A stretch of 64,000 nucleotides of DNA. It comes from Escherichia coli. GTDB taxonomy: Bacteria; Pseudomonadota; Gammaproteobacteria; Enterobacterales; Enterobacteriaceae. The stretch lies in NCBI RefSeq assembly GCF_030384885.1, contig NZ_CP128613.1; one strand, given 5' to 3'. The notes beneath the pieces were generated by a model. The model ran no database searches and was not told where the DNA came from. It saw only the letters and a program-made list of their open reading frames with translations. Shown in pieces: positions 23,873 through 34,324 of this stretch. Made by a program: the position numbers and the translations under genes. The first letter of the stretch is position 1, and every line of letters starts with the position of its first letter.

Positions 23873-24421
23873 ATGGCTGCTCTTACTGCAAGCTGTATTG
23901 CCTTGAATATTCAGGGCAATAGCGATTATTCCATTCTGAGACAGCTGGCTACAATAGCATGTCAAAATGGTTTCATTACCGATTCTCATACGTTTCTGCA
24001 GACCCTACTGCGACGCGAAAAAATGCACTCCACAGGATTTGGTTCTGGCATTGCCGTACCACACGGTAAAAGAGCCTGCGTTAAACTACCCTTCGTGTTA
24101 TTCGCCCGCAAAGCACAGGCCATTAACTGGAAAGCCAGCGACGGCTAAGGCGAAAACCTGATTGTTAATCGTCTCGCCATCCCACATGGCTGGAGCGAAC
24201 AGGAACGCCGTTTTCGTGGATTTTTTATTACCCTCGCCCAACCGCTCGAGGTGAATAACGAAGTCATTAACCATGTGTTGATCGCCTGTGCCGCCGCTGA
24301 TGCGCGCCACGAGTTGAAAATATTCAGCTCTCTGGCAAGCGTACTATGTACGTATCCGGCGGAGACTATTGCCGGGCTAACGGGATATGAAGGGTGTATA
24401 GCGTTACTTCGTCAGGAGTGA
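23873..24421 (+). pseudogene. frvA: PTS EIIA-type (frv-like) remnant interrupted by an in-frame TAA
   Basis: One frame reads ...FGSGIAVPHGKRACV...ASDG-stop(24146-24148)-GENLIVNRLAIPHGWSEQ... to 24421; two IPHG-type EIIA motifs; lies where frvABXR sits in K-12, which spans several kb. Confidence 0.5.
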
Positions 24422-24522: not shown

Positions 24523-25578
24523 TTAACGCAGGCGATTATAATCATCGACCATTTCGTTGTACTCACGTAATGCTCTCGGGAAAGAGTCGTCGACCATCCA
24601 ACTTGTGTTTGCATCCTGAAGTTGCTCTTTATCCCAGTCAGAATACGGAACTTTATCTCTGACGCGGCGAACATATTTTTTAGCCTCGAGTTGATACTGG
24701 TCTGCCGAATTAATGAACGAGAAATTCATACCGCCTTTATCCGCTTCTTTGGCCTGCGCCACCAGCGTTTCCAGTTCAGAGACTTTCTTCATTGCCGCAT
24801 CAACATCAAACTTCTCTTGCGAAATCAGGTTATTAATTTGTTTCGCTGAAATCATGACTGCCAGGGAGTAGTAGTGGAATGTTTTTCCTTCTGTTTCTTC
24901 AATATTTTTCAGTTCCGCAAGCTGACGCTTATCGTTAATTTCCTGAATCGCCGCATGATAAGATTCTGCTACAGGTTCAAAGGCTTCAAGATTTTTTAAG
25001 AATGTCTGGTGCAGCGTTTTCCCTTTCGCAAACGCATCGTCTTTATAATTTTCCTGGGTGTAATATTTATCCATTTCGTTAATGGTATTACCCAACGCCA
25101 CGGCAGCATCAATATAACTCACCGCCACGCCATCAATAGGTTGCAGCGCAGGCGTTAACGCCACAGCACTTTTTACGCCTTTTTCACACTCAGCGAGGTT
25201 GGATTCACTAATACCGTAGATACCATAAACAGTACGCTCTTCACCGGTAGGGCCCTGTTTAAAATCTTTCAGCCAGTCAGCATAACGCGCCAGACTGCTC
25301 TGTACAGGGATCTGTAACTTGTTGTAGCACTTGATATAGACATCCATTTTTTCGTCGAAAACCGCTTGTTCATCGACCACCGGTTGAGCAGGCGTTTCAG
25401 GTTTAACTTCTGCTTTTGCAACGGGAGCTTCAGCAGGTTTCGCTTCAGGAGCTGGTGCGGCAGGTTGACTATTGGCAGGCGGGGGCGTTTCTGTTTCGGA
25501 TTTTTTATCGTCACAACCCGTGAGACCGAGGGCCATTATGGCGACTATAATAGCGGAAGATAATAAATTCCTTTTCAT
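24523..25578 (-). CDS. yiiG: DUF3829 lipoprotein
   Basis: 351-aa ORF with lipoprotein signal (LGLTGC); synteny. Confidence 0.85.
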   Translation of the reverse strand: MKRNLLSSAIIVAIMALGLTGCDDKKSETETPPPANSQPAAPAPEAKPAEAPVAKAEVKPETPAQPVVDEQAVFDEKMDVYIKCYNKLQIPVQSSLARYADWLKDFKQGPTGEERTVYGIYGISESNLAECEKGVKSAVALTPALQPIDGVAVSYIDAAVALGNTINEMDKYYTQENYKDDAFAKGKTLHQTFLKNLEAFEPVAESYHAAIQEINDKRQLAELKNIEETEGKTFHYYSLAVMISAKQINNLISQEKFDVDAAMKKVSELETLVAQAKEADKGGMNFSFINSADQYQLEAKKYVRRVRDKVPYSDWDKEQLQDANTSWMVDDSFPRALREYNEMVDDYNRLR

Positions 25579-25690
25579 TTAATTGCCTTATAAATAGATA
25601 AATAAGAGTGTGAATATAATAAATGAAAAAAGAAAATGTCACTACACGCGTTTTGTTTATAAATAAATCGATAATATTCATAAAATGAAT

Positions 25691-25725
25691 AAGTCCTGTA
25701 ATTTAATTTCTAAATCACAGGACTT
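25691..25725. terminator. hairpin between the 768-aa gene and yiiG
   Basis: Inverted repeat aagtcctgt...acaggactt flanked by T-rich sequence in AT-rich DNA. Confidence 0.45.
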
Positions 25726-25788
25726 ATTTTAACTAACGGCACAACCTTTGCGGGAGGGAGTGTCATGTCCCCCACCATTAATCATGCA

Positions 25789-28095
25789 CTACATCCCGTA
25801 GCGTTCGGCAATAGTGGCATGTTTCTCTTCATTCGCCCCGGCTTCTTTGGCGAGACGCCACCAGCACAACGGATGTTCCCAGTCAGCGGTCAATTCGTGC
25901 AAGGTCTTATCGATATCACCTTTAGAAATTGAACGCGGCGCACTGATAACAAAGTAGAATGCGGGAAGTGGCTGCGCATCTTCACCCTGATGACTGTCCG
26001 TTAACGTATAGTCGTCATTACTGTTGCTCCAGTAGTACCAGTTTCGTTCACGGAGCGCCTCACGGAAAGTATTAAACTCTTCTTCACCAGGCATGACACC
26101 TTCGCAGAACCAGGACTCGCCGTATTCGGTCGGGATAATGGTGTTCAGGCACCCATAAAGCGGAGTGAAATTCTTCCGTTCTTCCTCATCCTCTGGTTGG
26201 GTGTTCAATATTTCTGCATCGAATACCACAACTTCATCAACATGTTGCGGATAATCGGTCCGGTAAGTTGGCTCAATGATCCTTGCTGTTACCGGCCCAA
26301 TACGTTGAGCATAGTAATAGCGGTATTCATAATTTTCCCGGAAGCGGATGTTTAACAGCCCCCATTTTTCGTCAATAAAACCTTCGCCTTCCGTGAGCTC
26401 GATTTCCAGTTCAGCAGCAATAGCACGAACCAAATCCCATTGTTGCAGGATGCTGGCGGTCGCCATGATATCCCACTGGAGATTGCGAATATCTTCTTCA
26501 CGGCTAATCATCAGTTGCTGCAATTGTTGTAAATAATCCAGCTGTCGATCCCAGGCTTCCTGTTTTTGTGCTGCCCAAGAGCACATGCGATAAACGCCAA
26601 CCCACTCACGCCCTTTTTCGTGTTGCAGCAACTGTTGCCCAATCGACTCCAGTTCACTCCAGTCTTCCTGTTGGTTGAGCACTCGCGCACGGAACCACAA
26701 GGCCATATGTAGCAGCCCCGCCTGTTCATACTGCTTCGCCAGGTGCTCAATGGTTTGCAGATCGTCACGGTGGAGCAATAAATCCAACAGATCGAAGCAA
26801 AGACCATTATCTTCCTGGATGTGGCTTTCGACGTAGCGTTGCAGAAGTTCAATCGACTCATCAATCGCATTACAGGCGTTTAACGCATTGACCAGTTTGC
26901 CCAGCAATTCCGCATCATCTGGCGCGTTCAGGTAAGCGCGGCGGAATGTTTCGACGTCTTTTTCTGGATCTGGTTGCGTTTCTTCATCGCTATTTTCAGG
27001 TACTTCTACAACCGGACGAGCAAGCAACTCTGCTTCTTTGGCGGCGATTTTTTCACTCAGTTCGAGAAACTCACGATCAACCCCCAGTAACACGCGTAAT
27101 TTTGGCATGTGTCGCTGGGCCAGTTTCATCGCTATTTTGGCAACCCAGACGGATTCACGCTCCAGCGCCAGGGTAATTTGCAGTTTCGCCAGATCAACCA
27201 CTTTGCGGTGCGCTCCGGCCTGCGAGCGGTGCTCCAGCATTTTTTGGATGATGCGCGCCAGTTGCCAGTTGTTTCTTTGTGGATGACGGGGAAGTAACAC
27301 AGTAATGATTTTCAGCCATGACCCCCATGAATGGGGAGTCAGATCTGACCAACGCGGTAATTCCTCCCAGACTTCTTCGTCCTGCCCGCATAACGCCATG
27401 ATGTACAGTTTTTTGAGGTGATTACTAATGCGGTCGCGGCCCCAGTAATCATTGGCTTCTGTCAGCTCATCAATCAGTATGCGTGCTTCATCATAACGCT
27501 GAAGTTCAATCAGAATATCGGCACGAGTATAAAGTAATGCATCAATATCATCTTCCCCGGCTGCTTTAACTGCGTCGATTTGTCGATCCAGATAAGCCAA
27601 TGCCTCCTCTATTCTTTTGGAATCTATCAGTGCACTGGCATATTCAGTGGACAAACACTGAAAACAGCTCCAGGTCGGATCAATCCGCGCGATGGTTTCT
27701 TCACATACCGCCATACGTTCATTCGCCCAGCCAGGTGCATCAATATTTTCGTAGCAGGCGGATAAATCCTGGGTAACGCAGATAGATTGTGGGCAATCTT
27801 TTGTCTCTTCCCGGTGCGCTTTTTCAAACAGCGCCACTACGTCAGGCAGTACTTTTTCACCTTCTTCGCGGTTAGTCAGGCGATGGCGCATTTCCCAGTG
27901 ACCAATAAAAATCTCCAGCCACGGATTTTTTGCCACCTGGGTAAGTGCTTTTACTTCAGGTAACAGCGAATCGCACTTTTCCATTTGCAGGTGCATAACG
28001 CCTTCCGAATAATCATCGATAAGTTGCGGAATATATTCCTGCCCGGCATCGCGTAACTCCTTAGTATATTTGTGATACCACTCCCATATATCCAT
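25789..28095 (-). CDS. hypothetical 768-aa acidic, predominantly alpha-helical protein, partner of the Hsp90-like ATPase
   Basis: Long uninterrupted ORF; ATG lies 1 nt after the stop of the upstream gene with RBS aagga; sequence is helix-rich and repeat-like; no catalytic motif recognised. Confidence 0.8.
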   Translation of the reverse strand: MDIWEWYHKYTKELRDAGQEYIPQLIDDYSEGVMHLQMEKCDSLLPEVKALTQVAKNPWLEIFIGHWEMRHRLTNREEGEKVLPDVVALFEKAHREETKDCPQSICVTQDLSACYENIDAPGWANERMAVCEETIARIDPTWSCFQCLSTEYASALIDSKRIEEALAYLDRQIDAVKAAGEDDIDALLYTRADILIELQRYDEARILIDELTEANDYWGRDRISNHLKKLYIMALCGQDEEVWEELPRWSDLTPHSWGSWLKIITVLLPRHPQRNNWQLARIIQKMLEHRSQAGAHRKVVDLAKLQITLALERESVWVAKIAMKLAQRHMPKLRVLLGVDREFLELSEKIAAKEAELLARPVVEVPENSDEETQPDPEKDVETFRRAYLNAPDDAELLGKLVNALNACNAIDESIELLQRYVESHIQEDNGLCFDLLDLLLHRDDLQTIEHLAKQYEQAGLLHMALWFRARVLNQQEDWSELESIGQQLLQHEKGREWVGVYRMCSWAAQKQEAWDRQLDYLQQLQQLMISREEDIRNLQWDIMATASILQQWDLVRAIAAELEIELTEGEGFIDEKWGLLNIRFRENYEYRYYYAQRIGPVTARIIEPTYRTDYPQHVDEVVVFDAEILNTQPEDEEERKNFTPLYGCLNTIIPTEYGESWFCEGVMPGEEEFNTFREALRERNWYYWSNSNDDYTLTDSHQGEDAQPLPAFYFVISAPRSISKGDIDKTLHELTADWEHPLCWWRLAKEAGANEEKHATIAERYGM

Positions 28096-28096
28096 T

Positions 28097-29932
28097 TTAT
28101 TTTCCTTGATTAATTAAGACAGGAATAACCTGAGTAAAATCTTCCAGTGCCTGATGTAAATCCCACTGCTGTTCTTTATTACCACTGGAGCACAAAATCA
28201 CTTTCAGCGATTTTAATAACCGTAATGCTGCCGCTGGCTGTTGATGGTGTTGTAATGCCGTCACCAGTTGCATGACACAGGGGTTATTAAGATTGATATA
28301 CAGACTTGAAGTTTTAGTCTTTTGGATTTGCGAGGTAAATTGCCGCGCCAGCATTAACGCTGCGGTGCTGATGCGTTTATCTGCGTCATCCTGTTCGAGA
28401 ATTTGTTTTAATTCTGCTTCGCGGTCTGGCGTGACCACGAGCGGTAAAACCGCTGGTTCGAAGCGGGAGATAATTAATTGCTCGCCGTCGCAAAGATGCT
28501 CTTCCAGATAAGCAACCTGCTCTTCAGGTAATTCTGCCAGGCTGAACAACTGCTCATTACCCGTTTGCGTACCGACTTCGATAATCCGGCAGTGATATAA
28601 CAGCGCCCAACGACGTAAAAATGGCACCACCGCATAACGATCGCCACGGGCTACGGGCCGTTGCAGAATATGAAACAACATCTCTTCAAAACCGCCGTCG
28701 CGGCTTAACAGAATATGAATGCTGTTATTAACGCGTAAATCCTTCGCCAGCAACGCCCCTTTTGACGTTGGCACCTGCAAGCGATCTTTGAGCAAATCAA
28801 ACAGACGGTCATCACATAATGCCGCACCGAGCAACGCTTCGTTGTGGCGCATTAATACACGCCGCCAGATTTCTGGCTGATTTTGTGCGAGATCGGACAA
28901 ACCAGAAATCAGCGCCTCTTTTAACGCCTCCTGCACCGCAACCCAGGTTTCGTCCCGCTGGAGATCTTCCCGGCTCGCCGTAGGCGTTAGTTTCGATGAC
29001 TCAATCACGCCGCCAATAAATCCGGCCCAGGGAGGTAACAACTCACGCGCTTCATCATCCAGTAACATACCGCGCAAAAACAGCGACAGGTTGCGGTTAT
29101 CGCTGGTGCCGTAGGTTGCGCCATCCTGAATCCATAAAATCCCGACCGCATCGCTCATACCCGCTGGCACCACCGGAATGGTGCAAATCGGTTCAAAGGA
29201 GGATTCAAACTGGGCGGCAAAGGCGAGATTTTTACGCTGCACCAGCGCGCGGTGTATGGTTACGCCTTCGGGGGCAACTTCACGCCACGGTGGTTGAAGT
29301 TTATTTACCGGCTCGCTGGCATCGCCGACATAGACCGGTTCGTGCAGCAATATGCAGTAGCGGGAAAGAACGCGGTTCAGCAGATTATTACTCGCCAGAT
29401 GGCTGTACTCTTCTTTGAGCGTCAGAATCACCTGCGTTCCCGGCGCCGAGGACTGATGCGGCGTAACGGTATATTTTTGCCCGTCGGTAGAGTGGTATTT
29501 CCAGCTCTGATCCGGCGTTTGCCAGGATGTGGTCAACACCGTGACCTCTTTCGCCAACACAAAGGCCGACAAAAAACCGAGGCCGAACATACCAATTAAA
29601 CCGGTGTTGTCATCCTGCTGGCGCAACATTCGGGTATAACCCACGCCCACTGTCGCCAGGAAGCCGTGAATTTCGCTTTCTGTCAGACCCGCACCGGTAT
29701 CGGTAATGGTGATGGTGGACTTCGCCACGTCTGCCACTACACGAATTTGGTTATCCTTTGGCGCATCGGGCTGCTCAATCCTGCGGCGAACGATCGCATC
29801 ATGGCCGTTCTGCACCAGCTCGCGCACGGCAACTACGGGAGTGGAGTAAAGATGCTTACTGAGCACCTCAATTAAACCGTTTAAATTAACTTCTGTAGAA
29901 TATGAACTGCCAGGTAACTGTAATGTACTCAT
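28097..29932 (-). CDS. Hsp90/HtpG-like GHKL ATPase paralog (611 aa)
   Basis: Bergerat-fold motifs: N-box RELVQNGHDA, G1 box ITITDTGAGLT, G2 box GMFGLGFLSAFVLAKEVTV; length close to HtpG; in-frame stop two codons upstream of the ATG. Confidence 0.85.
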   Translation of the reverse strand: MSTLQLPGSSYSTEVNLNGLIEVLSKHLYSTPVVAVRELVQNGHDAIVRRRIEQPDAPKDNQIRVVADVAKSTITITDTGAGLTESEIHGFLATVGVGYTRMLRQQDDNTGLIGMFGLGFLSAFVLAKEVTVLTTSWQTPDQSWKYHSTDGQKYTVTPHQSSAPGTQVILTLKEEYSHLASNNLLNRVLSRYCILLHEPVYVGDASEPVNKLQPPWREVAPEGVTIHRALVQRKNLAFAAQFESSFEPICTIPVVPAGMSDAVGILWIQDGATYGTSDNRNLSLFLRGMLLDDEARELLPPWAGFIGGVIESSKLTPTASREDLQRDETWVAVQEALKEALISGLSDLAQNQPEIWRRVLMRHNEALLGAALCDDRLFDLLKDRLQVPTSKGALLAKDLRVNNSIHILLSRDGGFEEMLFHILQRPVARGDRYAVVPFLRRWALLYHCRIIEVGTQTGNEQLFSLAELPEEQVAYLEEHLCDGEQLIISRFEPAVLPLVVTPDREAELKQILEQDDADKRISTAALMLARQFTSQIQKTKTSSLYINLNNPCVMQLVTALQHHQQPAAALRLLKSLKVILCSSGNKEQQWDLHQALEDFTQVIPVLINQGK

Positions 29933-30243
29933 TTTTCAATACTCATAATCCATCACCTACTATTGAAAATACATTGCTGTTTTTTACAACCGGTGCAAGG
30001 TTTGTTATTTGCATTCACTCATCGGAAACATTTATTTATTGACGCGATGATTAAAACAAAATGTCTTATATAAATAATGATTAATTCTTAAAGGATTAAT
30101 GCGACTGGAGTATATCGATATAAACTGGAATTAACGAGATAATTTCTTGTGGTGAAATTATTATTTAAATGCTGAATAATATATTGAGGATTATTTAATA
30201 GAAAAATAAAACCGCAATCCAGAATCAGAATTGCGGTATTTCT

Positions 30244-31080
30244 TTAATTATGAATCAAACGCTGCGGATGGGTATAAACCGTTGCCCGACCCGGCTTACA
30301 AAAGCCCACCAGCGTCAAATTACAGCGCTCAGCCACTTCTACGGCAAGCGTGGTCGCGGCAGACACCGCAAACAAAATTTCTACGCCGCACATCGCTGAC
30401 TTTTGCACCATTTCATAACTGGCACGACTGGAAACCAGCACCGCACCTTGATGCCAGCTTTCCCCTTCTTGTGACCGGCGGCCTAACAGTTTATCCAGCG
30501 CCACATGGCGACCCACGTCTTCATGCCCGCCTACCAGTTCGCCAGATGGCAACATCCAGGCAGCGGCGTGAGTACAACCAGTCAGTTGCCCCACTGGCTG
30601 GAAATCATTGAGATGGCGTAATGCATCATCCAGTTTGTTGAGATCAAATGTCTGAGTGAACGGCAGCGGCTGCACCGGTTTACCGATGTCATTAAGTTGC
30701 TCCACGCCGCACACGCCACATCCCGTACGTCCCGCCAGTGCCCGACGACGCTCCTTCAACCCCATAAAGCGGCGGCTGGAAAGCTCAATTTGCACTTCCA
30801 GACCATTACAGGAAGGAACGACATCCATGCCAAAGATATCGCGCGGACTTTCGATAATCCCCTCGGAAAGCGAAAAACCGAGCGCAAAGTATTCAAGGTC
30901 TTTGGGCGACGCCATCATCACCACATGCGAAATGCCGTTGTAGACCAGCGCAACGGGAACCTCTTCCGCCACCTCATCTAACCGTGGGTGTTGTAAATCG
31001 TCACGCCGCCATAACTCAATTTGACGAACACCTGTGACATTTGTCACATTTTTGATTTCTTTTTGCTGTGTTTTTTTCAC
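30244..31080 (-). CDS. fdhD: formate dehydrogenase sulfurtransferase/accessory protein
   Basis: 278-aa ORF; recognised FdhD sequence (GRTGCGVCG motif); divergent from fdoG. Confidence 0.92.
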
Positions 31081-31273: not shown

Positions 31274-34200
31274 ATGCAGGTCAGCAGAAGGCAGTTCTTT
31301 AAGATCTGCGCTGGCGGTATGGCAGGCACCACGGCAGCGGCACTGGGTTTTGCACCCAGCGTAGCACTCGCGGAAACCCGGCAGTATAAACTGCTGCGCA
31401 CCCGCGAAACCCGTAATACCTGCACCTATTGTTCCGTAGGCTGTGGGCTGTTGATGTACAGCCTCGGTGACGGAGCAAAAAACGCCAAAGCATCTATCTT
31501 CCATATCGAAGGTGACCCGGATCACCCGGTCAACCGCGGTGCACTTTGTCCGAAAGGCGCTGGCCTGGTGGATTTCATCCACTCCGAAAGCCGTCTGAAG
31601 TTCCCGGAATACCGTGCCCCTGGTTCTGATAAATGGCAGCAAATCAGTTGGGAAGAAGCGTTTGATCGCATCGCCAAATTGATGAAAGAAGACCGCGATG
31701 CTAACTACATTGCGCAAAACGCCGAAGGCGTGACTGTTAACCGCTGGCTCTCCACCGGAATGCTGTGTGCTTCCGCGTCGAGTAACGAAACCGGCTATTT
31801 AACGCAAAAATTCTCCCGCGCGCTGGGTATGCTCGCGGTCGACAACCAGGCGCGTGTCTGACACGGACCAACGGTAGCAAGTCTTGCTCCAACATTTGGT
31901 CGCGGTGCGATGACCAACCACTGGGTCGACATCAAGAACGCCAACCTCGTCGTGGTGATGGGCGGTAACGCCGCTGAAGCTCACCCGGTCGGGTTCCGCT
32001 GGGCGATGGAAGCCAAAATTCACAACGGCGCGAAGCTGATTGTGATCGATCCTCGCTTTACGCGTACGGCGGCGGTGGCTGACTACTATGCCCCTATTCG
32101 TTCCGGTACTGACATTGCTTTCCTGTCAGGCGTATTGCTGTACCTGCTGAACAATGAAAAATTCAACCGCGAATACACCGAAGCCTATACCAACGCCAGC
32201 CTGATCGTGCGTGAGGATTACGGCTTTGAAGATGGCCTGTTCACCGGCTACGACGCGGAAAAACGCAAGTACGATAAATCCAGCTGGACCTACGAGCTGG
32301 ACGAAAACGGCTTCGCCAAACGCGATACCACGCTGCAACATCCGCGCTGCGTGTGGAACTTGCTGAAACAGCACGTTTCCCGTTATACGCCAGATGTGGT
32401 TGAAAACATCTGTGGCACGCCGAAAGACGCGTTCCTGAAAGTCTGCGAATACATCGCAGAGACCAGTGCTCACGATAAAACTGCCTCGTTCCTTTACGCG
32501 CTCGGCTGGACGCAACACTCCGTTGGTGCGCAGAACATTCGTACGATGGCGATGATCCAGCTACTGCTCGGCAATATGGGGATGGCAGGCGGCGGCGTTA
32601 ACGCCCTGCGCGGTCACTCCAACATTCAGGGGCTGACGGACCTGGGGCTGCTGTCGCAGAGCCTGCCAGGTTACATGACGCTGCCAAGCGAGAAGCAGAC
32701 CGATCTGCAAACCTACCTTGCCGCCAATACGCCGAAACCGCTGCTGGAAGGCCAGGTTAACTACTGGGGCAATTACCCGAAATTCTTCGTCTCCATGATG
32801 AAGGCCTTCTTTGGTGATAAAGCGACGGCAGAAAACAGCTGGGGCTTTGACTGGTTGCCGAAGTGGGATAAAGGCTACGACGTCCTGCAATACTTCGAGA
32901 TGATGAAAGAGGGCAAGGTCAATGGCTATATCTGCCAGGGCTTTAACCCTGTTGCCTCATTCCCGAACAAAAACAAAGTGATCGGTTGTCTGTCGAAACT
33001 GAAGTTCCTCGTCACTATCGACCCGCTGAACACTGAAACCTCTAACTTCTGGCAGAACCACGGTGAGCTGAACGAAGTGGACTCGTCGAAGATCCAGACC
33101 GAAGTGTTCCGTCTGCCATCGACCTGCTTCGCGGAAGAGAACGGTTCAATCGTTAACTCCGGTCGCTGGTTGCAGTGGCACTGGAAAGGTGCGGACGCCC
33201 CAGGGATTGCGCTGACTGATGGCGAGATCCTCTCCGGTATCTTCCTGCGCTTGCGCAAGATGTACGCCGAACAGGGTGGCGCGAACCCGGACCAGGTGCT
33301 GAACATGACCTGGAACTACGCCATCCCGCATGAGCCGAAGTCGGAAGAAGTGGCGATGGAGAGCAACGGTAAGGCGCTGGCCGATATTACCGATCCGGCA
33401 ACCGGGGCGGTTATCGTCAAGAAAGGCCAACAACTTAGCTCGTTCGCCCAACTGCGCGATGACGGTACCACCTCCTGTGGCTGCTGGATTTTCGCCGGTA
33501 GCTGGACGCCAGAGGGCAACCAGATGGCACGCCGTGATAACGCCGATCCGTCTGGCCTCGGTAACACGCTGGGCTGGGCATGGGCATGGCCGCTTAACCG
33601 CCGCATTCTGTATAACCGCGCCTCCGCAGATCCGCAGGGTAACCCGTGGGATCCGAAGCGTCAGTTGCTGAAATGGGACGGCACCAAATGGACCGGCTGG
33701 GATATTCCGGACTACAGCGCAGCGCCTCCGGGCAGTGGCGTCGGGCCGTTTATCATGCAGCAGGAAGGCATGGGGCGTCTGTTTGCCCTCGATAAGATGG
33801 CGGAAGGTCCGTTCCCGGAACACTACGAGCCGTTTGAAACGCCGCTGGGAACTAACCCACTGCATCCAAACGTTATCTCGAACCCGGCGGCGCGAATCTT
33901 TAAAGACGATGCCGAAGCATTGGGTAAAGCCGATAAGTTCCCGTATGTCGGAACCACCTATCGTCTGACCGAGCACTTCCACTACTGGACCAAACACGCG
34001 CTGTTGAATGCGATTTTGCAGCCAGAGCAGTTTGTGGAAATCGGGGAGTCGCTGGCGAATAAACTTGGCATTGCCCAGGGCGATACCGTGAAAGTCTCCT
34101 CCAACCGTGGCTATATCAAAGCCAAAGCGGTGGTGACCAAACGTATTCGTACGCTAAAAGCGAACGGCAAAGATATCGATACCATCGGTATTCCGATTCA

Positions 34201-34324
34201 CTGGGGCTATGAAGGTGTTGCGAAAAAAGGCTTTATTGCCAACACGTTAACGCCATTCGTTGGTGATGCGAACACGCAGACGCCGGAGTTTAAGTCCTTC
34301 CTTGTGAATGTGGAAAAGGTGTAA
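31274..34324 (+). CDS. fdoG: formate dehydrogenase-O catalytic subunit (selenoprotein; in-frame UGA at 31859-31861)
   Basis: ORFs 31274-31861 and 31910-34324 share one frame and are joined through TGA (..DNQARV-U-HGPTVASLAPTFG..); twin-arginine signal MQVSRRQFFKICAGG; 1016 codons. Confidence 0.93.
31859..31910 (+). promoter_or_regulatory. UGA(Sec) codon plus downstream SECIS-type stem-loop
   Basis: Directly 3' of the in-frame UGA, as bacterial SECIS elements are; the fold was not computed. Confidence 0.6.

What the first reader, a model, noticed from the sequence alone, without database searches (positions are those of the whole stretch)
25580..30243. Two-gene operon, Hsp90-like ATPase plus 768-aa helical partner, inserted between yiiG and fdhD
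In K-12 as I recall it, yiiG and fdhD are neighbours. Here about 4.6 kb lies between them, bounded on both sides by AT-rich DNA. It carries two co-directional minus-strand genes whose stop and start codons are 1 nt apart. The first encodes a full-length HtpG-size GHKL ATPase and the second a large acidic alpha-helical protein with no motif I can assign. I do not know of a characterised bacterial system with this architecture. Two hypotheses are a dedicated chaperone with a client or co-chaperone-like partner, or a conflict (defence) module built on an ATPase. There is no integrase, transposase or tRNA at the borders.
Basis: partly seen in the sequence, partly recalled or inferred. Interest (0 to 1): 0.9.

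Follow-up and report, generated by a model that had tools for sequence, protein, structure and literature searches.

The report
Hsp90 paralog with dedicated TPR partner
This is a real, intact two-gene operon encoding a second Hsp90-type chaperone ATPase and a large, uncharacterised TPR partner with an invariant cysteine motif; it is an old chromosomal module that most E. coli have lost, not a mobile defence island, and the partner is a candidate dedicated cofactor for a bacterial Hsp90.

Summary
Two minus-strand genes (A, 611 aa, 28097-29932; B, 768 aa, 25789-28095) lie 1 nt apart in about 4.5 kb that BL21 and about 95% of complete E. coli genomes lack.

A is a genuine Hsp90-family ATPase: all ATP-binding motifs and the middle-domain catalytic arginine are present, and TRAP1 and HtpG are its best solved relatives. 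B has an N-terminal helical module with a near-invariant Cys/His motif, a canonical TPR array and a C-terminal alpha/beta domain found only in this family.

The pair is strictly operonic in 75 of 76 testable species loci across Gamma- and Betaproteobacteria and beyond. It co-diverges (r = 0.98) under strong purifying selection (dN/dS 0.02 and 0.1). It is widespread in P. aeruginosa (inferred PA1068/PA1069), Xanthomonas and Stenotrophomonas. It sits at the same fdhD-yiiG site in other Escherichia species, Salmonella and Superficieibacter.

It has no mobility genes, no defence-model hits, no effector domain and no true plasmid or phage copies. "Inserted defence module" is therefore not supported. 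The best reading is an ancestral, variably lost, specialised Hsp90-paralog machine with an obligate TPR cofactor. Its function is uncharacterised in the literature searched. Interest is moderate to high.

The parts
25733..30243 (.). DNA present here and absent from empty-site E. coli such as BL21(DE3); about 4.5 kb between the fdhD stop codon and the ancestral fdhD-distal hairpin
   Evidence: Alignment with the BL21 empty site and the junction sequences. A short TTAA(A) microhomology occurs at both junctions. There are no long repeats.
30211..30237 (-). Intrinsic-terminator-like hairpin with a T-run immediately after the fdhD stop; it insulates the pair from fdhD transcription
   Evidence: 10-bp stem, 5 GC pairs, TTTATTTTT tail; sequence.
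29933..30210 (-). AT-rich (about 28% GC) leader and presumed promoter region of the operon; the promoter was not identified
   Evidence: for composition. Searches found only weak sigma-70-like matches and no sigma-32- or sigma-54-like match. One search found no Rfam element.
29929..29946 (-). Five-codon upstream ORF (MSIEK*) with a GGTGA Shine-Dalgarno; its TGA stop overlaps the ATG of gene A (ATGA). Possible translational coupling; unverified
   Evidence: Read directly from the sequence.
28097..29932 (-). Gene A: 611-aa (68 kDa) Hsp90-family GHKL ATPase, an HtpG paralog of the 'Hsp90xo'/PA1068 type. Catalytic E38, N42, D45; D78-x-G-x-G82; G114-MFGLGF120; middle-domain R321 in the TASREDLQ loop; LYxNxxNP motif in the C-terminal region
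   Evidence: NF010683 288 bits; HtpG 197 bits; HATPase_c_3 plus HSP90 Pfam; TRAP1/HtpG, E about 1e-29, residues 10-359 aligned; conservation over 73 sequences; source names.
25789..28095 (-). Gene B: 768-aa (90 kDa, pI 4.7) partner of the PA1069 type
   Evidence: (AF2 mean pLDDT 92).
27622..28095 (-). B residues 1-158: the most conserved part of B, carrying the near-invariant W4, W6, W59, H66, W67, C101-P-Q-S-x-C106, D110, C114, D119-G-P-G, C144-x-x-C147; a candidate metal, redox or Hsp90-contact site
   Evidence: C101 204/204, C106 201, C144 200, C147 199, H66 202 of 204. No Pfam or PDB sequence match for this stretch.
27022..28095 (-). B residues 1-358: first helical-repeat (TPR-like) superhelix
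26410..26967 (-). B residues 377-562: canonical TPR array, joined to module 1 by a flexible linker (359-376, low pLDDT)
   Evidence: (profile matches consensus TPR proteins over 378-540, E down to 1e-53).
25792..26361 (-). B residues 579-768: family-specific alpha/beta C-terminal domain (beta-hairpins plus a ferredoxin/ACT-like beta-alpha-beta unit) with a conserved RTGPVTA strand and an acidic PEDEEER loop
25688..25728 (-). 18-19-bp hairpin about 60 nt after B's stop. The same hairpin directly follows fdhD in empty-site genomes; probable terminator of the operon
   Evidence: I1.

Best explanation
The interval encodes a specialised Hsp90-paralog chaperone machine with an obligate partner. Gene A is a catalytically complete, presumably dimeric Hsp90-family ATPase, distinct from housekeeping HtpG. 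It probably belongs to the deep 'group C' HtpG lineage. Gene B is made with A by translational coupling and is proposed to act with it as a dedicated cofactor or adaptor. B's two TPR superhelices provide peptide- or protein-binding grooves. Its N-terminal Cys/His motif is a metal or redox site, or the Hsp90 contact. Its unique ACT/ferredoxin-like C-terminal domain may bind a ligand or a client. In the proposed cycle, B recruits or holds a specific client, or senses a cue, and A's ATP-driven clamp remodels it. The module is an ancient chromosomal unit inherited with its flanks. It is widespread in P. aeruginosa, Xanthomonas and Stenotrophomonas and variably lost in E. coli and Salmonella, so K-12 carries a deletion and this strain does not carry an insertion. 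What is shown: family membership of A, the domain anatomy of B, the strict operon linkage, co-divergence, purifying selection, synteny and the absence of mobility or defence hallmarks. What is inferred: physical A-B interaction, the cofactor role of B, metal binding, and any client.
For: A is Hsp90-family. It hits NF010683 'HSP90 family protein' (E 1e-85) and HtpG (E 7e-58) and Pfam HATPase_c_3 plus HSP90. Its best solved relatives are TRAP1 and HtpG, aligned over the N and middle domains with the RELxxNxxDA, DxGxG, GxxGxGF and SRE-arginine motifs. These motifs are at least 95% conserved in 73 orthologues. Linkage: A lies directly upstream on the same strand in 75 of 76 testable species loci and in every other motif-bearing context examined except two. 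Gaps in the called or annotated contexts run from a 1-nt overlap to about 36 nt, and here the junction is TAA-A-ATG with an internal SD. No third gene is conserved. A and B distances correlate with r = 0.98, and B evolves 1.46 times faster. Selection: dN/dS is 0.022 for A and 0.06-0.11 for B, against 0.029 for fdhD. History: fdhD-A-B-yiiG synteny is seen in E. whittamii, cryptic Escherichia, Superficieibacter and Salmonella. A's dS equals that of the neighbouring fdhD. In P. aeruginosa the pair sits between a LysR gene and the bra/flg genes, on at least 1000 contigs. PA1069 is described as operonic with an Hsp90 gene and is detected as a protein. The Cys/His motif is near-invariant over 204 sequences at a median 32% identity. 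All three motif-less family members lack an adjacent Hsp90 gene.
Against: No direct evidence of A-B binding was obtained; a complex prediction could not be run. A's C-terminal tail is variable and lacks any MEEVD-like motif, so the classical eukaryotic TPR-clamp mode is not conserved. A scores below the curated cut-offs of both NCBIfam Hsp90 models, so it is a divergent clade whose chaperone activity is assumed. Two motif-bearing B homologues (Thorsellia; P0182) have no adjacent A, so B can persist without a neighbouring A. The motif-pairing correlation (Fisher p = 9e-5) is not phylogenetically independent. PA1069 transcripts fall at 46 C and no sigma-32-like promoter is present, so this is not a classical heat-shock chaperone. 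No client is known.
Confidence: 0.6

Rival explanations
1. B is not a cofactor but the dedicated client of A. B would be a large multi-domain, possibly metal-containing protein whose folding, metal insertion or activation needs its own Hsp90 paralog. The cellular function then resides in B, for example ligand sensing or scaffolding through the TPRs and the ACT-like domain.
For: Gene order A then B with translational coupling. B evolves faster than A. B family members exist alone in some Actinomycetota and in Thorsellia, so B can function without a neighbouring A. The Cys/His motif could be a cofactor site needing assisted maturation. PA1069 was recovered in a co-IP list that also contains IscS and IscR, which is a weak hint.
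Against: Stand-alone B homologues that lost the motif also lost A. This fits 'the motif mediates work with A' at least as well. Stoichiometric co-expression by coupling is more typical of complexes than of chaperone-client pairs. No enzymatic or output domain was detected in B.
Confidence: 0.2
2. The pair is a split signalling switch analogous to STAND/MalT-type regulators. B's TPR superhelix and ACT-like domain sense a ligand or peptide, and the GHKL ATPase A provides the nucleotide-driven conformational switch that controls an unknown downstream target.
Against: No DNA-binding, kinase, cyclase or other output domain exists in either protein, and there is no conserved neighbouring regulator or target. 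TPR superhelix similarity is generic. A has the full Hsp90 N-M-C organisation and not a minimal switch ATPase.
Confidence: 0.1
3. The pair is an anti-phage or other conflict system. B's TPR sensor would detect an invader and the GHKL ATPase would execute or license an abortive response. Its patchy presence in E. coli and Salmonella would reflect defence-gene turnover.
For: Presence/absence polymorphism: 4.7% of complete E. coli genomes carry the pair, and it is absent from Salmonella LT2. The borders are AT-rich. GHKL N-domains give weak hits to PADLOC TmtA and REase models and to two PHROG families. TPR sensors are common in defence proteins (established knowledge). Cronobacter has hok/gef genes next to the pair.
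Against: PADLOC hits cover only the generic ATP-binding fold of A, and B has none. There is no nuclease, protease, TIR, pore or other effector domain. Neighbourhoods are housekeeping and differ between genera. Copies are chromosomal only, and the plasmid and phage database hits are mislabelled chromosomal records. Purifying selection is as strong as on fdhD. The pair is widespread and syntenic in P. aeruginosa, Xanthomonas and Stenotrophomonas. The locus is syntenic across genera.
Confidence: 0.07

Closest known systems
Bacterial Hsp90 (HtpG) and the deep HtpG paralog groups B and C (Stechmann & Cavalier-Smith 2004; Chen et al. 2006, PMC1525184; Press et al. 2013, PMC3708813); NCBIfam NF010683 'HSP90 family protein'
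   Same: A has the Hsp90 N-terminal GHKL ATPase with every nucleotide-binding motif, the middle-domain catalytic arginine loop and an Hsp90-like C-terminal region. Its length matches HtpG (611 against 624 aa). It is a second Hsp90 copy in gammaproteobacteria, as described for group C.
   Different: A scores below the curated cut-offs of both NCBIfam models (288 against 455 bits; 197 against 371 bits), so PGAP calls it only 'ATP-binding protein'. HtpG is monocistronic, heat-induced and has no known dedicated cofactor (established knowledge). A is always coupled to B, has no sigma-32-like promoter, and the PA1069 transcript (gene B of the inferred P. aeruginosa operon) drops at 46 C. The paralog groups were explicitly left out of the main functional study. 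Assignment to group C is inferred, not tested.
Eukaryotic TPR co-chaperones of Hsp90 (Hop/Sti1, PP5, CHIP, RPAP3, Sgt1), and the Zn-binding CHORD proteins (Rar1, Chp1) that bind the Hsp90 N-domain
   Same: A TPR-containing protein is functionally tied to an Hsp90. B combines TPR arrays with a Cys/His-rich element and an extra domain, which resembles conceptually the TPR-plus-effector layout and the CHORD/Sgt1 partnership. CHIP and RPAP3 TPR domains appear among B's structural matches.
   Different: There is no sequence homology beyond generic TPR. B's TPR superhelices are far longer than the 3-repeat carboxylate clamp. A has no conserved acidic MEEVD-type tail. The Cys motif (CPQSxC...CxxC) is not a CHORD or Hsp33 signature, and Pfam found none. 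Binding is untested.
P. aeruginosa PA1068/PA1069 (Q9I4Q5) and 'Hsp90xo' of Xanthomonas and Stenotrophomonas: uncharacterised orthologues
   Same: The same two-gene operon (B 41-42% and A about 58% identical), at a fixed chromosomal site between a LysR gene and braG. PA1069 was noted as 'operonic with Hsp90'.
   Different: These appear only in omics tables: Ca2+/biofilm proteomes, the AmrZ regulon, a heat-shock RNA-seq and a BatR co-IP. No function has been assigned. The PA-number identity is inferred from neighbourhood and the literature statement, not from an accession match.
GHKL-ATPase-containing defence systems (for example MORC/paraMORC-type or restriction-associated GHKL proteins, PADLOC TmtA)
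   Same: They share the Bergerat ATP-binding fold.
   Different: The match is limited to about 100 residues of the nucleotide-binding fold at E 5e-6 or weaker. A carries Hsp90-specific middle-domain features that those proteins lack. There is no effector and no defence context.

Membership tests
Hsp90 family (HtpG/TRAP1-type chaperone ATPase) | N-terminal Bergerat-fold ATPase with catalytic Glu and the N-x-x-D, DxGxG and GxxGxG motifs | tested here: met
   E38/N42/D45, D78-G80-G82 and G114-G119 align to TRAP1 and are at least 95% conserved in 73 orthologues. Pfam HATPase_c_3 at E 6e-9.
Hsp90 family (HtpG/TRAP1-type chaperone ATPase) | Hsp90 middle domain with the catalytic-loop arginine (the SRE motif) that completes the ATPase site | tested here: met
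   LPPWAGFIGGVIESSKLTPTASREDLQ aligns with TRAP1 [27 protein letters not shown]. Pfam HSP90 hit over residues 274-353. R321 is conserved.
Hsp90 family (HtpG/TRAP1-type chaperone ATPase) | C-terminal dimerisation domain | tested here: inconclusive
   The NF010683 profile aligns to residue 571 and an LYxNxxNP motif is conserved. PDB alignments stop near residue 359 and no structure of A was predicted.
Hsp90 family (HtpG/TRAP1-type chaperone ATPase) | Score above the curated NCBIfam cut-off for HtpG (NF003555) or the HSP90 family protein model (NF010683) | tested here: not met
   196.6 against 371 bits and 288.1 against 455 bits. A is a divergent sister clade, not an equivalog of either model.
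Hsp90 family (HtpG/TRAP1-type chaperone ATPase) | ATP hydrolysis and client remodelling activity | not testable with these tools
   Requires biochemistry.
Classical TPR-clamp Hsp90 co-chaperone (Hop/CHIP/PP5 type) | TPR domain in the partner | tested here: met
Classical TPR-clamp Hsp90 co-chaperone (Hop/CHIP/PP5 type) | Conserved acidic C-terminal (M)EEVD peptide on the Hsp90 that the TPR clamp binds | tested here: not met
   The C-terminal 25 residues of about 60 distinct A orthologues are variable and non-acidic, for example ...VLINQGK and ...VTQLLAR.
Classical TPR-clamp Hsp90 co-chaperone (Hop/CHIP/PP5 type) | Physical binding to Hsp90 and modulation of its ATPase | not testable with these tools
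Anti-phage defence system | Match to a known or candidate defence-system protein model | tested here: not met
   In PADLOC, B has no hits and A hits only generic GHKL N-folds at E 5e-6 or weaker.
Anti-phage defence system | Effector domain capable of killing or degrading (nuclease, protease, TIR, pore and similar) | tested here: not met
Anti-phage defence system | Location in defence islands or mobile elements; variable neighbourhood enriched in defence genes | tested here: not met
   Neighbours are housekeeping genes and are lineage-specific. There are no true plasmid or phage copies.
Anti-phage defence system | Patchy presence/absence within species | tested here: met
   254 of 5426 E. coli genomes; absent from Salmonella LT2. 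In contrast, the pair is widespread in P. aeruginosa and present in about 30 Xanthomonas species.
Anti-phage defence system | Protection against phage when expressed | not testable with these tools
   Requires plating assays.
Mobile genomic island or insertion | Integrase, transposase or recombinase, a tRNA target, and flanking repeats | tested here: not met
   No such ORFs, no tRNA, no border repeats beyond a 4-5-nt TTAA(A) microhomology.
Mobile genomic island or insertion | Atypical base composition of the cargo genes | tested here: not met
   A is 50.9% and B 48.8% GC against 50.0% for the window. Only the intergenic DNA is AT-rich.
Zinc or redox Cys4 centre (Hsp33-like switch, CHORD-like Zn site, or Fe-S) | Four or more invariant Cys (and His) positioned to bind a metal | tested here: inconclusive
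   C101, C106, C144, C147 and H66 are 97.5-100% conserved. The two pairs lie at opposite ends of a long helix by secondary structure, so they may form two sites or an inter-subunit site. No Hsp33 or CHORD Pfam hit.

The most novel reading that the evidence does not exclude
B (PA1069 family) is the first dedicated co-chaperone or adaptor of a bacterial Hsp90. It would dock onto the paralog A through its invariant N-terminal Cys/His module, which senses metal or redox state. It would use its TPR grooves and ACT-like domain to deliver specific clients. This would be an independent bacterial invention of the Hsp90-TPR partnership, using a binding mode other than the MEEVD clamp.
Probability: 0.35. 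Interest if true: 0.8.

Novelty: new variant of a known kind. Interest (0 to 1): 0.55.

Why it matters
By established knowledge (not tested here), bacterial Hsp90 (HtpG) is held to work without dedicated co-chaperones; the papers retrieved add that few prokaryotic clients are known and that bacteria lack a Hop orthologue. The ancient Hsp90 paralog lineages were set aside in the main functional study found, and no functional work on them turned up in my searches. This locus shows that one such paralog is almost always co-transcribed with a large, conserved TPR protein carrying a near-invariant cysteine motif. That gives a concrete, testable candidate for a bacterial Hsp90 cofactor, or a privileged client, in genetically tractable organisms: P. 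aeruginosa PAO1 (PA1068/PA1069, inferred), Xanthomonas, and natural E. coli carriers alongside natural E. coli non-carriers. It also shows that presence/absence plus AT-rich borders in E. coli does not by itself indicate a defence island.

Tried and rejected
- **Defence libraries.** PADLOC gave only generic GHKL hits for A and nothing for B. PHROGs gave nothing for B and two families of unknown function for A.
- **Mobility signatures.** tRNA scan, repeat search and ORF listing found nothing.
- **Leader RNA or riboswitch.** No Rfam hit at E <= 1.
- **Heat-shock (sigma-32) or sigma-54 promoter upstream of A.** None within 3 mismatches. The sigma-70 scan was no better than shuffles, so the promoter remains unidentified.
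- **Conserved third gene.** ORF clustering over 39 loci from 32+ genera found only A, B and shadow ORFs.
- **Functional link to fdhD or formate dehydrogenase.** Rejected: adjacency is limited to Escherichia, Salmonella and Superficieibacter, and neighbours differ elsewhere.
- **Plasmid and phage carriage.** The four hits are mislabelled chromosomal records.
- **MEEVD-type tail on A.** Absent.
- **Literature.** Searches for a characterised Hsp90-TPR bacterial operon, Hsp90 in defence, and 'Hsp90xo' found nothing functional.
- **Not possible here.** An A-B complex prediction could not be run (single-chain tool, both jobs used). The Cys geometry in the model could not be inspected (coordinates not exposed).
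Full report
**1.

The ORF list shows two co-directional minus-strand ORFs. A runs 28097-29932 (611 aa) and B runs 25789-28095 (768 aa). They lie between yiiG (24523-25578) and fdhD (30244-31080).

The junction reads ...AAGGAAAATAA-A-ATGGAT. That is a 1-nt gap with a Shine-Dalgarno sequence inside A's last codons, the signature of translational coupling.

Alignment with the BL21(DE3) empty site places the extra DNA at about 25733-30243. It starts immediately after the fdhD stop codon. It ends just before an 18-19-bp hairpin (25688-25728) that directly follows fdhD in empty genomes. Only a TTAA(A) microhomology marks the junctions.

Inside the right border, fdhD has its own terminator-like hairpin (30211-30237). 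About 280 bp of 28% GC DNA follows, then A. The pair is therefore an independent transcription unit.

The genes themselves have genome-typical GC content (50.9% and 48.8% against 50.0%). There is no tRNA, integrase or transposase, no border repeats and no Rfam element.

**2. Distribution in E. coli**

The window is identical to E. coli 2013C-4282, where PGAP names the genes "ATP-binding protein" and "hypothetical protein".

Of 5426 complete E. coli genomes, 254 (4.7%) carry the pair. Each has one copy, always chromosomal, and 246 of the 254 also match at least 80% of the query that included the yiiG and fdhD flanks. Alleles fall into bands of about 97%, 96%, 95% and 92% nucleotide identity.

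BL21(DE3), an O157:H7 genome and about 95% of the other genomes have yiiG next to fdhD.

**3. Gene A is a true Hsp90-family ATPase**

- It matches NCBIfam "HSP90 family protein" NF010683 (E 1e-85, residues 13-571) and HtpG NF003555 (E 7e-58). It falls below both curated cut-offs, which explains the bland PGAP name.
- Pfam finds HATPase_c_3 and the Hsp90 middle domain.
- The best solved relatives are TRAP1 and HtpG (E about 1e-29), aligned over residues 10-359.
- The catalytic and nucleotide-binding motifs are all present: E38/N42/D45, DTGAGL, GMFGLGF and the middle-domain arginine R321 in TASREDLQ. They are at least 95% conserved in 73 orthologues.
- The C-terminal tail is variable and has no MEEVD-like motif.
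- Source names include "heat shock protein (Hsp90-family)" and "Hsp90xo protein".
- Chen et al. 2006 place the second gammaproteobacterial and actinobacterial Hsp90 copies in HtpG "group C". Press et al. 2013 note the ancient paralogs and exclude them from analysis. A most likely belongs to that lineage. This is an inference and was not tested by phylogeny.

**4. Gene B is an uncharacterised family with a fixed architecture**

The AlphaFold model is confident (mean pLDDT 92, pTM 0.74). It shows four parts:

- a first helical-repeat superhelix (residues 1-358)
- a flexible linker (359-376)
- a second helical module (377-562) that is a canonical TPR array (profile against consensus TPR proteins, E down to 1e-53)
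- an alpha/beta C-terminal domain (579-768; domain-only model pLDDT 95)

The most conserved part of B is the first 158 residues or so. Over 204 full-length members (median 32% identity), conservation is as follows:

| Residue | Present in |
|---|---|
| C101 | 204/204 |
| C106 | 201/204 |
| C144 | 200/204 |
| C147 | 199/204 |
| H66 | 202/204 |
| D110 | 202/204 |
| D119 | 204/204 |

The motif is CPQSxC...C...CxxC. It points to a metal or redox site, or a conserved interaction surface.

**5. A and B form one unit**

- A scan of one genome per species found B relatives in 157 genomes. The 80 best loci were kept. In 75 of the 76 loci with room upstream, A lies directly upstream on the same strand. 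The exception is Thorsellia.
- The same arrangement holds in Cronobacter, P. aeruginosa, Xanthomonas, a metagenomic bin, Salmonella and two distant members.
- No third gene is conserved.
- A is 52-62% identical and B 31-41% identical across classes. Their pairwise distances correlate with r = 0.98, and B evolves about 1.5 times faster.
- The three family members that have lost the Cys/His motif (Nonomuraea, P0180, P0189) are exactly those without an adjacent Hsp90 gene.
- About 84 of 86 motif-bearing members are paired (Fisher p = 9e-5). These cases are not phylogenetically independent, and two motif-bearing orphans exist.

**6. This is not a mobile or defence element**

- *Neighbourhoods.* They are housekeeping genes and lineage-specific. 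In P. aeruginosa the pair sits between a LysR gene and braG...flgB. In Xanthomonas it sits between an AraC-type gene and an old-yellow-enzyme/RsbR-type cluster.
- *P. aeruginosa.* This context matches my recollection of the PAO1 gene map. One paper also states that PA1069 "appears operonic" with an Hsp90 gene. Together these identify the orthologues as PA1068/PA1069, by inference. The A orthologue is seen on at least 1000 P. aeruginosa contigs and in the outlier strain PA7.
- *Plasmid and phage hits.* All are mislabelled chromosomal DNA. They are an 847-kb P. aeruginosa replicon record, an 11.8-Mb Nonomuraea "plasmid", a Xanthomonas "plasmid" carrying radA and the chromosomal neighbourhood, and a Salmonella contig in the phage set.
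- *Selection.* It is strongly purifying. dN/dS is 0.022 for A and 0.106 for B between two E. coli alleles. Against Salmonella the values are 0.036 and 0.060. The housekeeping neighbour fdhD gives 0.029.
- *Synteny.* The order fdhD-A-B-yiiG is conserved in E. whittamii, two cryptic Escherichia clades and Superficieibacter. In Salmonella Infantis the pair lies in the same fdhD-yiiG-rha region, with three extra genes between fdhD and A, two of which are yiiG-like.
- *Other Escherichia.* A is also reported from E. fergusonii, E. marmotae and E. ruysiae.
- *Divergence with flanks.* A's dS (0.20) equals that of fdhD (0.22). The B and yiiG half is more divergent. Sliding-window identity shows a mosaic with a break near the A/B junction.

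The simplest history is an ancestral enterobacterial locus that evolves and recombines with its flanks and has been deleted in most E. coli, including K-12-like strains. This strain probably did not gain it by insertion.

**7. What the literature says**

Seven of the ten permitted full-text searches were run. None found a functional study of this operon, of "Hsp90xo", or of a bacterial Hsp90 with a TPR partner.

PA1069 (Q9I4Q5, "uncharacterized protein") appears only in omics tables:

- present in Ca2+/biofilm proteomes and lowered in an efhP mutant
- present in surface-adhesion proteomes
- repressed about 4-fold at 46 C
- AmrZ-bound and 3.2-fold AmrZ-activated
- slightly repressed by inulin and FOS
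- enriched in a BatR co-IP list that also contains IscS and IscR

A recent Hsp90 review notes that only a handful of prokaryotic clients are known. That bacterial Hsp90 lacks known co-chaperones is established knowledge, consistent with the abstracts retrieved.

**8. Mechanism**

Shown here:

- A has everything needed for an Hsp90-type ATPase cycle.
- B offers two TPR binding grooves, a near-invariant Cys/His element and a unique ACT/ferredoxin-like domain.
- The two genes are co-translated, co-inherited and co-evolving.

Inferred (confidence about 0.6): they form a specialised chaperone machine. B would be the obligate cofactor or adaptor that selects a client or senses a metal or redox cue, and A would supply ATP-driven remodelling.

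The classical eukaryotic docking mode, a TPR clamp on an MEEVD tail, was tested and is not met. Any interaction must therefore use another surface, and B's N-terminal motif region is the best candidate.

The module is not a classical heat-shock unit. It has no sigma-32-like promoter, and the P. aeruginosa transcript falls on heat shock.

Rivals:

| Rival reading | Confidence |
|---|---|
| B is A's dedicated client | 0.2 |
| A split TPR-sensor/GHKL signalling switch | 0.1 |
| A defence system | 0.07 |

**9. Verdict**

Novelty is a new variant of a known kind: an Hsp90 system with a dedicated, previously unnamed TPR/Cys-motif partner.

I score interest at 0.55. It is not a new defence system. 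It is a conserved, untouched two-gene system that bears directly on whether bacterial Hsp90s have cofactors and on what the deep Hsp90 paralogs do. It can be tested readily in PAO1 and in natural E. coli carrier and non-carrier strains.

Noticed in passing
window 23873-24421: The frv operon is largely deleted in this strain. A truncated frvA (PTS IIA, missing its C-terminus) is followed directly by a 3' remnant of frvR, and both are annotated as pseudogenes. Other E. coli (AREA_R505, BL21) have frvB-frvX-frvR intact upstream of yiiG.
   Followed up: partly
window 24523-25578 (yiiG); L092 1314-3505 and 8897-9997: yiiG is unusually divergent between E. coli strains: 78% aa and 83% nt identity, dN/dS 0.22, against 0.03 for fdhD. 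Some genomes annotate it only as a DUF3829 protein. Salmonella Infantis has three yiiG-like paralogs around the pair.
   Followed up: partly
window 27500-28100 versus 28100-31000: Mosaic divergence between two carrier E. coli strains. The yiiG and B half is 80-92% identical, while A, fdhD and fdoG are 94-99% identical. The change is sharp near the A/B junction, which suggests a recombination breakpoint inside the operon.
   Followed up: partly
window 29929-29946 (-): A five-codon upstream ORF (MSIEK*) has a good GGTGA Shine-Dalgarno, and its stop overlaps the ATG of gene A (ATGA). A's own SD is weak, so A may be translated by coupling to this leader peptide. Conservation in other alleles was not checked.
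   Followed up: no
window 31274-34324 (+): The formate dehydrogenase alpha-subunit gene appears as two ORFs (31274-31861 and 31910-34324) in the mechanical ORF list but is annotated as one CDS. This is the well-known in-frame TGA selenocysteine codon and is ordinary.
   Followed up: no
L004 and L005 4894-5596 (Cronobacter): Two tandem hok/gef-family toxin genes lie immediately upstream of the A-B pair in Cronobacter dublinensis, and a dynamin-like GTPase plus a YjcZ gene lie downstream. This was the only context with any toxin-type neighbour.
   Followed up: no
protein A residues 127-415; PHROG phrog_32952: The middle region of A matches a PHROG family of unknown function at E 2e-19, and a second family (phrog_6203) at E 1e-6. 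Some phage or prophage-derived records therefore encode Hsp90-like proteins. It was not checked whether these are genuine phage genes.
   Followed up: no
records NZ_LT559118.1, NZ_CP034650.1, AFYI01000005.1: Three database mislabels were seen. An 11.85-Mb Nonomuraea 'plasmid I' is chromosome-sized. Xanthomonas vasicola 'plasmid' pXVH29 carries radA and a chromosomal neighbourhood identical to L008. A 156-kb Salmonella Infantis chromosomal contig sits in the phage collection.
   Followed up: partly
P. aeruginosa PA1069 (literature): PA1069 was enriched in a BatR (PA3049) co-immunoprecipitation list together with IscS and IscR. It is also AmrZ-bound and activated. The Fe-S link is intriguing given B's invariant cysteines, but it rests on a single pull-down table.
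   Followed up: no
L093 (Nonomuraea), L095, L096, L099: Actinobacterial-type B homologues (24-29% identity) stand alone next to housekeeping genes (miaA-dapF in Nonomuraea; DUF6315 nearby in L096 and L099). Three of the four have lost the Cys/His motif. It was not examined whether those genomes encode a group C Hsp90 elsewhere.
   Followed up: partly
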